Below, piece after piece: positions 22,910 to 24,963 of a stretch of 64,000 nucleotides of DNA. The position numbers were made by a program, and so were the translations under genes. The stretch's first letter is position 1. Every line of letters starts with the position of its first letter. The notes beneath the pieces are model-generated. The model had not been told where the DNA came from. It did not search any database and worked only from the letters and a program-made list of their open reading frames with translations. This stretch comes from Alphaproteobacteria bacterium (GTDB lineage: Bacteria > Pseudomonadota > Alphaproteobacteria > MPNO01). The stretch covers positions 576,001 to 640,000 of the forward strand of contig CBDFLJ010000001.1 in the NCBI GenBank assembly GCA_965248835.1, in the 5' to 3' direction.

Positions 22910-22938
22910 TTGACGGGCCGGCGCGCAGGCAATATCCT
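22910..22938 (+). promoter_or_regulatory. Putative sigma70 promoter of the GST gene
   Basis: TTGACG (22910-22915), 17-nt spacer, TATCCT (22933-22938). Confidence 0.65.
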
Positions 22939-22979
22939 TGTCGGACCGCCTACCGACACCGCTACTATCGAGGAAACAG

Positions 22980-23678
22980 ATGACCAAGAAGCACCACCTG
23001 ATCAGCTCGTTCACCTGACCCTGGGTCCAGCGCGCCGTGATCCTTTTGCGCGCAAAAGATGTCGATTTCGAGGTCACTTACATCAACCTGAGAGACAAGC
23101 CGGACTGGTTTCTCGAGATCTCGCCGCACGGCAAGGTCCCGGTCCTGGTCGTCGACGACCAGCCGCTGTTCGAATCCAACGCGATCGCCGAATATCTCGA
23201 CGAGATGGTCGCGCCCAGGCTCCACCCCGAGGACCCGATCAAGCGGGCGCGGAACCGGGCCTGGACCGACTTCGTACCGGATTTCTCCCGCGCGTTGATG
23301 GGCATCTACTACACCAAGACCAGGGAGGCGATGGAAGAAGGCCTGGCCGCCGCGCCCACGCGGGTCGCCAGGCTGGAAGAGGCCATCGCCAAGGAACGCG
23401 GCAATGACGGCCCCTATTTCAACGGCGCCCAACCGTGCCTCGTCGATGCCGCCTATGCGCCGTTCTTCCAGCGCTTCGACCTCGTCGAGCGCTATTTGAA
23501 GACCGGCCTCCTGGACGGGTTTCCGCTGGTCAAGGCATGGTCGGATACCTTGCTCGGGACCGAGCTGGTAACCGGTTCGGTGGTTTCGCATTTCGAGGAC
23601 GAGTTCATCGGCAACTTGCGGCGCAACGAACACTATGTCGCAACGCTGATCGATGCGGAGACGGTCGCGGCGGAATAG
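22980..23678 (+). CDS. Glutathione S-transferase (omega/Cys-GST-like), probable selenoprotein with Sec13 encoded by TGA 23016-23018
   Basis: GAGGA RBS, then ATG 22980: MTKKHHLISSFT*PWVQRAVILL..., in frame with ORF 23037..23678 (KPDWFLEISPHGKVPVL, LFESNAIAEYLDE). The TGA sits where Cys-GSTs have the C of CP(W/Y/F)VQR. Confidence 0.85.
23040..23060 (+). promoter_or_regulatory. Candidate bacterial SECIS hairpin within the GST coding sequence
   Basis: ATC-CTTTTG-CGCG-CAAAAG-AT; loop about 30 nt after the UGA with G at loop position 2; built from AT-rich codons (CTT TTG .. GCA AAA) unusual for this DNA. Confidence 0.55.
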
Positions 23679-23711
23679 CCGGCGGCCTTCCGCAAACGAT
23701 CGAACGAGACG

Positions 23712-23744
23712 CGGCGGCCCGTTCCTTCCCGGAACGGGCCGCCG
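23712..23744 (+). terminator. 14-bp perfect hairpin downstream of the GST (possible terminator)
   Basis: CGGCGGCCCGTTCC-TTCCC-GGAACGGGCCGCCG followed by TTCCAATT; weak U-tract. Confidence 0.5.
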
Positions 23745-23766
23745 TTCCAATTCGGATACCGCGATC

Positions 23767-24963
23767 ATGAGCACATCGCAGTCCGCCGCGAATGAGCTCC
23801 TCGAGCGCGCCCAGGCGCTGGCCCCGATGTTGCGCGCGCGCCAGGACGAGATCGAGCGGCTCCGCCGGATCCCGACCGACATCATCGAGCGCCTCAAAGA
23901 GGACGGGCTCTACCGCGCGATGATGCCGCGCAGCCGCGGCGGCTACGAGATCGGGTTGGACGACTTCGTGCGAATCGGCGTGGAAATCGGCACCGGCTGC
24001 GCCTCGACCGGCTGGGTCTTTTGCACCGGCGCACAGCATCTGTGGCAGATCGGCATGTTCGACGCCGCCGCGCAGGACGAGGTCTGGGGGCGGGCGCGCT
24101 TGCCGCTGGCCGGGTCGTCCTACGCGCCCAGCGGCACCGCGGTCGCGGTCGAGGGCGGCTACCGCCTGAGCGGGCGCTGGATGTTCTGCAGCGGCATCGA
24201 CGCTTGCGACTGGATGATCCTTGGCGTACGGATCCTGCCCGCACCCGATGCCGAGCCGGTCGATCAGGGTTTCGCGCTGGTGCCGGCCGCGGACTACGCG
24301 ATCGAGGACAACTGGCATGTCGTCGGGCTCGAAGGCACCGGCAGCAAGAACGCGGTGCTCGATGAGGTCTTCGTGCCCCGCCACCGGGTCATGGGCCTGG
24401 AGGAGGCGACGATGGGCCGCCCGCCCGGCACGGCGGTCAACGACGGCGCGCTGTTCCGGATCCCGTTCTTTGCCGCGATCTCGATCGGGCTATGTGCGCC
24501 GGCGCTGGGCGCGGCGATGGGCGCGCTGGCCGACTACCGCGAGTCGATCGGCGTGCGCGTGACCCGCGGCCCGGCGACCAGCGCAGGCCGGGCGATGGCC
24601 GAGTTCCAGGCAATCCAGCTGCGCGTGGGCGAGGCGGCCGCACGCCTGGATTCGGCCCTGCTGCTGGTGCTGCGCGACTGCCGCGAGATCATGCAGACGA
24701 TCGGCGCGGGCGGCGCGCTCAGCCAGGCCAGCCGCGCGCGCAACAAGGGCGATCTGAGCTATGCGGTCAGATCGGCCGCGGGCGCGGTCGACTTGCTGTT
24801 CGAATCCGTCGGCGGCCAGGGGCTGTTCGACGACAACCGCATCCAGCGGGCGTGGCGCGACGTCCACGCCGCGGCCAAGCACATAAGCCTCGCCTGGGAT
24901 TCGACCGGGGCGATCTACGGCCGGACGCTTCTCGGCCTGTCGGCGGGCACGATCCAGATCTGA
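23767..24963 (+). CDS. Acyl-CoA-dehydrogenase-fold flavin-dependent monooxygenase (HsaA/C2-HpaH-like)
   Basis: CASTGWV, GRWMFCSGID, WHVVGLEGTGS, IQRAWRDVHAAAKH. Confidence 0.85.
   Translation: MSTSQSAANELLERAQALAPMLRARQDEIERLRRIPTDIIERLKEDGLYRAMMPRSRGGYEIGLDDFVRIGVEIGTGCASTGWVFCTGAQHLWQIGMFDAAAQDEVWGRARLPLAGSSYAPSGTAVAVEGGYRLSGRWMFCSGIDACDWMILGVRILPAPDAEPVDQGFALVPAADYAIEDNWHVVGLEGTGSKNAVLDEVFVPRHRVMGLEEATMGRPPGTAVNDGALFRIPFFAAISIGLCAPALGAAMGALADYRESIGVRVTRGPATSAGRAMAEFQAIQLRVGEAAARLDSALLLVLRDCREIMQTIGAGGALSQASRARNKGDLSYAVRSAAGAVDLLFESVGGQGLFDDNRIQRAWRDVHAAAKHISLAWDSTGAIYGRTLLGLSAGTIQI

What the first reader, a model, noticed from the sequence alone, without database searches (positions are those of the whole stretch)
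22910..23678. Hidden selenoprotein: glutathione S-transferase with UGA at the catalytic cysteine and a SECIS-like hairpin
Seen in sequence: the ORF caller starts this GST at GTG 23037, which has no SD and omits the first beta-strand and the active site. An in-frame ATG at 22980 has a GAGGA SD and a well-spaced promoter (TTGACG-17-TATCCT). It reads MTKKHHLISSFT-TGA-PWVQRAVILLRAK. The single TGA (23016-23018) is followed by a perfect palindrome CTTTTGCGCGCAAAAG (23043-23058) built from AT-rich codons atypical of this DNA. The rest of the gene shows no decay. Established knowledge: omega-like Cys-GSTs carry the catalytic Cys in a CP(W/Y/F)xxR motif at this position; bacterial SECIS elements lie just 3' of the UGA with a G at the start of the apical loop; Sec-containing GST-like proteins have been predicted in marine metagenomes. 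Inference: this is a UPWV seleno-GST (deglutathionylase or thiol transferase) that standard pipelines truncate. It implies selABCD elsewhere in the genome and could serve to detoxify quinone or electrophile products of the surrounding oxygenases.
Basis: partly seen in the sequence, partly recalled or inferred. Interest (0 to 1): 0.9.

Follow-up and report, generated by a model that had tools for sequence, protein, structure and literature searches.

The report
Unannotated selenocysteine glutathione transferase gene
This is a real glutathione-transferase gene whose catalytic cysteine is replaced by selenocysteine encoded by UGA, a known but uncharacterised kind of bacterial selenoprotein that gene callers cut short.

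Summary
ATG 22980 to TAG 23678 is one GST gene with an in-frame TGA at 23016-23018. The same TGA sits at the same column in 33 of 33 close orthologues among 61 related genomes. It is also present in 78 of the 80 best loci from a one-genome-per-species collection. More distant homologues carry TGC or TGT there (17 of 17). The 12 codons upstream are conserved as protein while their synonymous sites vary. The genome has selA, selB, selD and tRNA-Sec. The codon aligns with the catalytic Cys of Omega-class GSTs.

It is a GCGCGC/GCGYGC hairpin at 23030-23053, starting 11 nt after the UGA. It is 99.1% paired and its loop begins [C/G]GU in 79 of 79 sequences, with frozen synonymous sites.

Gene neighbours are not conserved, so a link to nearby oxygenases has no support. 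GST-like selenoproteins have been catalogued since 2005, so this is a new, mis-annotated member of a known kind.

The parts
22910..22938 (+). Sigma-70-like promoter candidate, TTGACG-17-TATCCT.
   Evidence: 9 of 12 matches to the consensus; 1 site found against 0.2 expected in shuffles. This is a consensus match only; function is not shown.
22970..22974 (+). Shine-Dalgarno-like GAGGA, five bases before the ATG.
   Evidence: Read directly from the sequence.
22980..23678 (+). Full coding sequence of the seleno-GST: 232 residues with Sec at residue 13, stop TAG at 23676-23678.
   Evidence: Translation. Pfam GST_N_2, GST_N_3, GST_N and GST_C_2 are above their cut-offs. Full-length orthologues were found. 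The AF2 model has pLDDT 92 and a GST fold.
23016..23018 (+). Sec codon UGA (residue 13), at the catalytic position before helix alpha-1.
   Evidence: The same column holds TGA in 33 of 33 close relatives and in 78 of 80 species loci. It holds TGC or TGT in 17 of 17 other homologues. It aligns with the CPF cysteine of GSTO1 and TDR1.
23030..23053 (+). Conserved SECIS hairpin. 5' arm GCGCGC 23030-23035, loop CGUGAUCCUUUU 23036-23047, 3' arm GCGCGC 23048-23053. The stem begins 11 nt after the UGA and the loop 17 nt after it.
   Evidence: 99.1% of cells are paired in 75 distinct sequences, and RNAalifold finds the same helix. Codon entropy is 0-0.17 bits at CAG CGC GCC GUG, against about 1-1.9 bits elsewhere. 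Energy is -10.6 kcal/mol here and the loop starts [C/G]GU in 79 of 79. The pairs are mostly lost in Cys forms.
23043..23058 (+). It is real in this genome but is not a conserved element.
   Evidence: 63.8% of cells paired, equal to the shuffles and slides. Energy -3.9 kcal/mol. It competes with the conserved hairpin for 23048-23053.
23037..23039 (+). GTG used by ORF callers as a false start. It is the GUG of the SECIS loop.
   Evidence: 213-aa public product. Two Sec-form species have GTC here and keep a GGU loop start.
23711..23745 (+). Strong 15-bp hairpin 33 nt after the stop codon. It looks like a terminator but has no clear U tract.
   Evidence: the 82-nt stretch folds at -43.3 kcal/mol, z = -3.89, and 0 of 200 shuffles fold as well. 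The consensus terminator scan did not list it.

Best explanation
Window 22980-23678 encodes a stand-alone, 232-residue, Omega-like glutathione transferase. Its catalytic residue (position 13, motif T-U-P-W-V-Q-R) is selenocysteine.

Proposed mechanism of insertion: the ribosome reaches UGA 23016-18. SelB carrying Sec-tRNA(Sec) is recruited by a 6-bp GC hairpin that starts 11 nt downstream (23030-23053) and whose loop begins CGUG. Sec is inserted and translation continues. Shown here are the conserved UGA, the conserved hairpin, the Sec machinery and the GST fold. Inferred are SelB binding to this hairpin and actual Se incorporation.

Proposed chemistry, by analogy with Cys-GSTs (Omega, Lambda, DHAR, TDR1): the selenolate attacks a glutathionylated or oxidised substrate. 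This forms a Se-S adduct with glutathione held in an intact G-site (conserved V-P and E-S motifs), and a second GSH resolves it. That would make the enzyme a thiol transferase, deglutathionylase or reductase rather than a conjugating GST.
For: 1. The TGA is conserved at one column in 33 of 33 orthologues of 65-100% identity among 61 related genomes. It is also present in 78 of the 80 best loci of a one-genome-per-species collection and in 10 of 25 matching genomes (own genome included) in an even sample of 401 genomes of the class.
2. Homologues carry Cys at that column: 15 of 15 fetched distant relatives, plus L076 and L108. Full-length 231-232-aa database proteins of 62-73% identity also read T-C-P-W-V-Q-R.
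3. The codons upstream of the TGA keep the peptide YHLISS-T while their third positions vary, for example TAT 39 / TAC 36 and four Thr codons. That is purifying selection on a frame that runs through the TGA.
4. The RNA is constrained right after the UGA. CGC is used in 79 of 79 sequences, and CAG, GCC and GUG in 77 of 79 each. The second Arg uses only CGY, which keeps a G-C or G-U pair, while other Arg codons in the gene use CGG freely. The helix is 99.1% paired.
5. The hairpin energy averages -8.95 kcal/mol in 79 Sec forms, against -3.18 for the same pairs in 17 Cys forms. Val (GUG) becomes Ala (GCN) in the Cys forms.
6. The Sec machinery is present: selA 559 bits, selB 444 bits, selD 309 bits (all above their cut-offs) and tRNA-Sec (aragorn, and RF01852 at 74.7 bits). 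selA is found in 61 of 61 relatives, 60 of them above the cut-off.
7. The same genome has at least 10 other family matches with a TGA at CxxU, UxxC or TPGU positions. Five of those 10 have a hairpin whose loop starts CGUG 20-24 nt after the UGA, against 0.8% of all 109,127 TGA trinucleotides.
8. The GST identity is clear. Pfam hits are above cut-off. The best PDB hits are TDR1 (1.4e-24) and GSTO1 (6e-21), with residue 13 aligned on their CPF cysteine. The AF2 model (pLDDT 92) places residue 13 between strand 5-9 and helix 14-25, and Foldseek gives TM 0.75-0.81 to Tau and Omega GSTs.
9. No other letter is listed at 23016-18 in contigs of 4 runs. Three of these runs come from one sample that may be the source of the assembly, so this is not independent support.
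Against: - There is no direct evidence of Se incorporation or expression. No RNA run was available.
- The hairpin shows no compensatory double changes, because it hardly varies (0 pairs with changes on both sides). The case for it rests on conservation, on G-C/G-U alternation at one pair, and on its loss in Cys forms.
- As drawn, the apical loop is 12 nt. That is longer than the 3-9 nt of the published consensus bSECIS model (passages of PMC13188914).
- Folding energy of the 60 nt after the UGA is not unusual on its own (z = -1.2).
- The CGUG-loop motif of item 7 was formalised after I had seen the other candidates, so that enrichment is partly post hoc.
- A few Cys forms (L131, L134, L135) still have a GC-rich hairpin there.
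Confidence: 0.93

Rival explanations
1. UGA 23016 is a true stop. The functional product is the annotated 213-aa protein started at GTG 23037, and the conserved GTG is a start codon rather than a SECIS loop.
For: The GTG is conserved in 77 of 79 Sec forms, and gene callers choose it or nearby starts.
Against: The truncated product would lack strand beta-1 (residues 5-9), the catalytic residue and half of helix alpha-1. The upstream 12 codons are under protein-level selection in the same frame. Different callers pick different starts, giving 213, 217 and 210 aa, so no single downstream start is supported. Two Sec-form species have GTC instead of GTG. No SD-like sequence precedes 23037. A start codon would not explain the frozen CGC and GCC codons or the CGY restriction on the 3' arm.
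Confidence: 0.03
2. The UGA is decoded, but not as Sec. For example, near-cognate read-through could insert Trp or Cys, helped by downstream structure.
For: Sequence alone cannot identify the inserted residue. The 12-nt loop falls outside the consensus bSECIS model.
Against: A complete Sec system is present. The position is a catalytic Cys in homologues, the classic Sec/Cys pair. The loop begins with the G-U expected of bSECIS and shares CGUG with other candidate Sec genes of this genome. All 33 genomes with the TGA form have selA.
Confidence: 0.03
3. The TGA is a nonsense mutation (pseudogene) or an assembly error.
For: None beyond the bare presence of a stop codon.
Against: The same TGA occurs in 78 of 80 species-level loci and in 33 of 33 close relatives, with an otherwise intact frame. 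Contigs from public runs agree.
Confidence: 0.005
4. The reader's palindrome at 23043-23058 is the SECIS.
For: It is a perfect 16-nt palindrome whose CGCG loop lies 30 nt after the UGA.
Against: It is not conserved: 63.8% of cells pair, no better than shuffled or slid controls. It is weaker than the conserved hairpin (-3.9 against -10.6 kcal/mol) and mutually exclusive with it. The MFE fold of the region chooses the conserved hairpin.
Confidence: 0.02

Closest known systems
GST-like selenoprotein family of marine metagenomes. Sources seen as passages and table rows only: Zhang, Fomenko and Gladyshev 2005, PMC1088965; GOS 2008, PMC2398784; reviews PMC9312934 and PMC13188914.
   Same: It is a bacterial protein of COG0625 / PF13409 with one Sec, and Cys homologues are widespread. 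PF13409 is the top Pfam hit here. The loci found here are mostly marine or engineered-system Alphaproteobacteria MAGs.
   Different: I could not confirm that the published members carry Sec at this same column. The papers list 4 and 12 Sec sequences. Here the Sec form is the rule among the 80 closest species (78 of 80), and its SECIS is described.
Omega-class GSTs and relatives with a catalytic Cys (human GSTO1/2, Leishmania TDR1, plant DHAR and Lambda GSTs).
   Same: GST fold; catalytic residue in a C/U-P-aromatic motif at the start of helix alpha-1; conserved V-P and E-S glutathione-binding motifs.
   Different: Sec replaces Cys. There is no Omega-type N-terminal extension: query residue 9 aligns with GSTO1 residue 34. 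Identity is only about 25-30%. Tau-class (Ser) GSTs match the fold equally well.
Consensus bacterial SECIS model behind bSECISearch, as given in PMC13188914 section 5 and the Fig. 2 legend (passages).
   Same: A hairpin inside the coding sequence just after the UGA; 6-bp stem (model 4-16); G then U at loop positions 2-3; 17 nt from the UGA to the loop (model 16-37); -10.6 kcal/mol (model <= -7.5).
   Different: The loop as drawn is 12 nt, against 3-9 in the model. The 11-nt gap between the UGA and the stem equals the spacing I recall for the minimal E. coli fdhF SECIS. That figure is recalled and was not checked in any call.

Membership tests
Bacterial selenoprotein gene | An in-frame UGA aligned with Cys in homologues (a Sec/Cys pair), with conservation on both sides of it. 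| tested here: met
Bacterial selenoprotein gene | selA, selB, selC (tRNA-Sec) and selD in the same genome. | tested here: met
   All three proteins are above the NCBIfam cut-offs. tRNA-Sec was found by aragorn and by RF01852 (74.7 bits).
Bacterial selenoprotein gene | Selenium actually incorporated at the UGA. | not testable with these tools
   Needs 75Se labelling or mass spectrometry.
Consensus bSECIS model (PMC13188914 Fig. 2 legend) | Upper stem of 4-16 bp. | tested here: met
   6 bp, 99.1% of cells paired.
Consensus bSECIS model (PMC13188914 Fig. 2 legend) | Apical loop of 3-9 nt. | tested here: not met
   The loop is 12 nt as drawn. No conserved inner pairs were found.
Consensus bSECIS model (PMC13188914 Fig. 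2 legend) | G in the first two loop positions, usually followed by G or U. | tested here: met
   The loop starts CGU or GGU in 79 of 79 sequences.
Consensus bSECIS model (PMC13188914 Fig. 2 legend) | 16-37 nt between the UGA and the apical loop; MFE <= -7.5 kcal/mol. | tested here: met
   17 nt. Energy is -10.6 kcal/mol in the window. The mean over 79 Sec forms is -8.95, and the weakest is -4.6.
Cytosolic GST superfamily | Thioredoxin-like N-domain plus helical C-domain. | tested here: met
   Pfam hits; AF2 model; Foldseek TM 0.75-0.81.
Cys-type (Omega-like) GST | Catalytic Cys in a C-P-(F/Y/W) motif before helix alpha-1, with an intact G-site (cis-Pro V-P, and E-S). | tested here: met
   U-P-W aligns on C-P-F of GSTO1 and TDR1. 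V53, P54, E65 and S66 are invariant in 26 sequences. Sec stands in place of Cys.
Omega class proper | The N-terminal extension characteristic of Omega GSTs. | tested here: not met
   Query residue 9 aligns with GSTO1 residue 34 and Sec is residue 13, so no extension is present.
Published GST-like selenoprotein family | COG0625 / PF13409 protein with a single Sec. | tested here: met
Published GST-like selenoprotein family | Sec at the same alignment column as the published members. | not testable with these tools
   The papers' tables give no motif. Supplements are closed.

The most novel reading that the evidence does not exclude
This GST subfamily may be ancestrally and predominantly a selenoenzyme in several alphaproteobacterial lineages and some gammaproteobacterial ones, with repeated Sec-to-Cys conversions. 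Its invariant SECIS has a 12-nt loop outside the consensus model but shares a CGUG loop start with other Sec genes of the same genome. That would reveal a lineage-specific SelB recognition signature, which could be used to mine a large hidden selenoproteome (12 or more genes) in Defluviicoccus-like bacteria.
Probability: 0.35. Interest if true: 0.5.

Novelty: new member of a known kind. Interest (0 to 1): 0.4.

Why it matters
The gene shows that a whole orthologous group is systematically mis-annotated. Public gene calls are 210-217-aa stumps that lack the active site. It supplies a well-defined, very strongly conserved SECIS for a selenoprotein family whose function has never been tested. It also places that family in complete genomes of Defluviicoccus-like Alphaproteobacteria, which appear to have rich selenoproteomes. 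A natural Sec/Cys series at 62-73% identity is a convenient system for asking what selenium gives a Cys-type GST. It does not change what is known about how Sec is encoded.

Tried and rejected
Rejected.

**Functional link to neighbouring genes.** The window's amidase, acyl-CoA-dehydrogenase-like and CoA-transferase neighbours recur in 1, 2 and 4 of 80 orthologous loci. The largest true neighbour cluster covers 12 of 81 loci; the 70- and 32-locus clusters are out-of-frame ORFs overlapping the GST itself. I conclude there is no conserved operon.

**Energy alone as evidence.** z = -1.2 for the 60 nt after the UGA, so this is not informative.

**Co-occurrence of the Sec form with selA.** Not discriminating, because 61 of 61 relatives have selA.

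**Sec-containing formate dehydrogenase.** The TIGR01553 matches are all below the cut-off and contain no stops. Other FDH models were not searched.

**Exact GST-type SECIS string elsewhere in the genome.** Only the GST itself matched in a coding context.

**Region around selA and selB.** Listed; nothing usable came out of the high-GC ORF noise.

**Tree of Sec and Cys forms.**
- The careful search did not finish, so the quick tree was used.
- Two rows (L120_Cys, L123_Cys) are unrelated ORFs caught by my regex and should be ignored.
- The tree needs 7 Sec/Cys changes, of which starred branches force only 2. The root is unknown, so no direction of change is claimed.

**RNA evidence.** No RNA holder was listed.

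**Laid contigs.** Runs X1-X3 are one sample that may be the assembly's source. 26 further difference rows were not shown, so 'no variant at 23016-18' rests on the rows listed and on zero-difference contigs spanning the site.

**Genome-wide CGUG-hairpin screen.** It gave 31 hits, most of which look like out-of-frame noise. Only the CxxU, UxxC and TPGU cases are credible.

Full report
**Observation.** The window holds an ATG at 22980, preceded by GAGGA (22970-22974) and by a promoter-like TTGACG-17-TATCCT (22910-22938). The promoter scan found 1 site against 0.2 expected. The frame runs 12 codons to TGA 23016-23018 and then stays open for 219 codons to TAG 23676-23678. Mechanical ORF finding starts at GTG 23037 and gives 213 aa. 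The public protein collection holds exactly that stump, P0002. For orthologues it holds stumps of 213, 217 or 210 aa. The 16-nt palindrome at 23043-23058 is present.

**Is the TGA decoded?** I searched 61 related genomes with the read-through protein. Thirty-three genomes, the own one included, have an orthologue of 65-100% identity, and every one has a single TGA inside the match. Eighteen genomes have only weaker matches of 59% identity or less without a TGA, and 10 have no match at E <= 1e-20.

- Reading the DNA, all 33 orthologues place the TGA at the same column, in ...HLISSFT-TGA-PWVQRAVI... (30, 3).
- In a collection with one genome per species, 317 stretches encode a relative. Of the 80 best, 78 have TGA at this column, one has TGT and one has TGC. 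L083 was missed by my first regex and was recovered.
- In an even sample of 401 genomes of the class, 25 have a match at E <= 1e-40, and 10 of these (own included, 55-100% identity) carry the TGA. They come from six other families.
- The 15 distant relatives I fetched (of the 18 genomes with only weaker matches; those of G051, G033 and G036 were not fetched) all read TGC or TGT there.
- Full-length 231-232-aa database proteins of 62-73% identity read T-C-P-W-V-Q-R.
- The eight codons before the TGA keep their amino acids while their third positions vary freely (TAT 39 / TAC 36, CAT 46 / CAC 28, four Thr codons). The frame upstream of the TGA is therefore translated together with the frame downstream.

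**Sec machinery.** The genome (2 contigs, 4.89 Mb, completeness 100) has:

| Component | Location | Score |
|---|---|---|
| selA | C1:1178871-1180211 | 559 bits |
| selB | C1:1180244-1182127 | 444 bits |
| selD | C1:494681-495598 | 309 bits |
| tRNA-Sec (anticodon TCA) | C1:1184331 | aragorn and RF01852, 74.7 bits |

selA is found in 61 of 61 relatives (60 above the cut-off), so all 33 TGA-form genomes have it.

**The SECIS.** In 75 distinct 78-nt sequences around the TGA, RNAalifold predicts a helix between columns 27-32 and 45-50, which is window 23030-23035 with 23048-23053.

- 99.1% of its cells pair. One pair alternates G-C (27 sequences) and G-U (48 sequences). No pair shows a double change, because the arms hardly vary.
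- Codon usage shows the constraint. After U-P-W-V, the codons CAG, CGC, GCC and GUG have entropies of 0.17, 0.00, 0.17 and 0.17 bits. The 4- and 6-fold codons elsewhere in the gene mostly have 1.0-1.9 bits.
- The Arg on the 3' arm uses only CGC or CGT, while Arg codons later in the gene are mostly CGG or mixed.
- The hairpin energy is -10.6 kcal/mol in the window, against -3.9 for the palindrome. It averages -8.95 in 79 Sec forms and -3.18 for the same pairs in 17 Cys forms. Seventy-five of 79 Sec-form 24-mers fold to it as their MFE. The loop begins CGU or GGU in 79 of 79.
- In Cys forms the loop Val (GUG) is Ala (GCN), and the 3' arm is usually broken.

Compared with the consensus bSECIS model quoted in PMC13188914 (passages), the stem length, the G-U loop start, the 17-nt distance and the energy all fit. 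The 12-nt loop exceeds the model's 3-9 nt. The review notes that a subset of elements falls outside the model. The stem starts 11 nt after the UGA; I recall the same spacing for the minimal E. coli fdhF element, but I did not check this in any call.

**Support from the same genome.** Searches with three Pfam families found 10 further matches that contain one TGA. In each, the TGA falls at a redox-motif position:

- five CMD/AhpD-like genes with C-x-x-U
- one SelW-like (Rdx) gene with C-x-x-U
- four AhpC/TSA-like genes, with T-P-G-U, U-P-F-C, U-P-H-C and Y-T-U-P

Five of these 10 have a hairpin of at least 4 bp whose loop starts CGUG, 20-24 nt after the UGA, as the GST has at 17 nt. The same rule hits 870 of 109,127 TGA trinucleotides genome-wide, or 0.8%. 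I wrote the rule after seeing these sequences, so the enrichment is indicative rather than a clean test. A screen with that rule added one more C-x-x-U candidate, at C1:746915.

**What the protein is.**

- Pfam GST_N_2 (PF13409, 72.5 bits), GST_N_3, GST_N and GST_C_2 are above their cut-offs. No NCBIfam model reaches its cut-off.
- The best solved relatives are Leishmania TDR1 (4ags, 1.4e-24), GSTO1 (8qll, 6e-21), pyrimidodiazepine synthase, SspA, DHAR and Lambda GSTs.
- The printed alignments put residue 13 on the C of the C-P-F motif, and they match the V-P and E-S glutathione-site motifs. Those residues are invariant in 26 family members.
- An AF2 model (pLDDT 92.0, pTM 0.90) has strand 5-9 and helix 14-25 flanking residue 13. 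Foldseek finds Tau and Omega GSTs at TM 0.75-0.81.
- The protein lacks the Omega N-terminal extension, so it is Omega-like but is not shown to be Omega class.

A thiol-transferase, deglutathionylase or reductase chemistry through a Se-S glutathione adduct is inferred from these relatives. It was not tested.

**Context.** The gene looks monocistronic: it has its own promoter-like site and a 15-bp hairpin 33 nt after the stop. Its neighbours (amidase, acyl-CoA-dehydrogenase-like, family-III CoA-transferase) are not conserved beside orthologues.

**Evolution.** A quick ML tree of 113 rows, two of which are spurious, intersperses Cys forms among Sec forms. It needs 7 changes, of which well-supported branches force 2. 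Direction and root are open.

**Reads.** Four runs hold the stretch as contigs. Zero-difference contigs span 23016-18, and no other letter is listed there. Depth peaks at 23008-23034 because many community members share this conserved segment. Three of the runs are one sample, possibly the source, so this is weak support.

**Known or new.** I saw these papers only as search listings and found passages or table rows.

- 'Glutathione S-transferase' (COG0625) is among the new selenoprotein families of the Sargasso Sea study, with 4 sequences (PMC1088965, tables).
- It appears again in GOS, with 12 Sec sequences and 1,036 Cys homologues (PMC2398784, table row).
- It is listed in reviews of 2022 (PPR62222.1) and 2026 (PF13409, MEK9676863.1). 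The 2026 review says the functions of nearly all such families are uncharacterised.
- A search for selenocysteine + 'glutathione transferase' + Alphaproteobacteria + selenoproteome returned 0 papers.

The kind is therefore known. I could not verify that the published members share this column.

Three things are added here. First, this gene is a member in a complete genome, and Sec is the majority state among its 80 closest species-level orthologues. Third, public gene calls for this group are truncated.

**Verdict.** This is a genuine, mis-annotated seleno-GST and a new member of a known kind, of moderate interest.

Noticed in passing
G000 outside the window: C2:185526-185771(-), C2:2091171-2091395(-), C2:2106016-2106150(-), C2:1306197-1306421(-), C2:2479778-2479915(+), C1:746915(+), C1:1326342-1326539(+), C2:289008-289370(-), C1:454940-455308(+), C1:758331-758714(-), C1:1772426-1772875(+): Eleven further candidate selenoprotein genes have a TGA at a redox-motif position. 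Six are CMD/AhpD-like (C-x-x-U), one is SelW-like (C-x-x-U) and four are AhpC/TSA-like (T-P-G-U, U-P-x-C, Y-T-U-P). Several share a hairpin whose loop starts CGUG 20-24 nt after the UGA. The genome seems rich in selenoproteins.
   Followed up: partly
L010:1390-3654 (-) = G000:C1 about 494570-496834: selD is fused to an N-terminal pyridine-nucleotide-disulphide oxidoreductase domain, giving 754 aa with Pyr_redox_2 + AIRS + AIRS_C.
   Followed up: partly
Relatives G059, G028, G045, G051 (Cys forms) and G037, G039 (Sec forms): In these genomes the GST homologue lies on the same contig as selA, within about 7-18 kb of it (coordinates). In the window's genome the two genes are about 580 kb apart.
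   Followed up: no
window 23008-23034: Summed contig depth in the metagenome runs peaks 10- to 40-fold over the flanks exactly at the TGA plus the 5' arm of the SECIS, and contigs break there. This suggests that many co-occurring organisms share this invariant segment.
   Followed up: no
L131, L134, L135 (Cys-form relatives): Some Cys forms keep a GC-rich hairpin at the SECIS position, but with GCG instead of GUG in the loop. Energies for the same pairs are -10.1 and -7.9 kcal/mol. This may be a relic of a former Sec state.
   Followed up: no
window 23711-23745: A 15-bp perfect hairpin follows the GST stop codon (z = -3.89 for the 82-nt stretch). The next gene's mechanical ORF start (ATG 23653) would overlap it. 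A start near 23767 fits the Pfam match better.
   Followed up: partly
G000 whole genome: No formate dehydrogenase match contains an in-frame stop, and none reaches the TIGR01553 cut-off. The Sec system here may therefore serve mainly thiol-redox proteins.
   Followed up: partly
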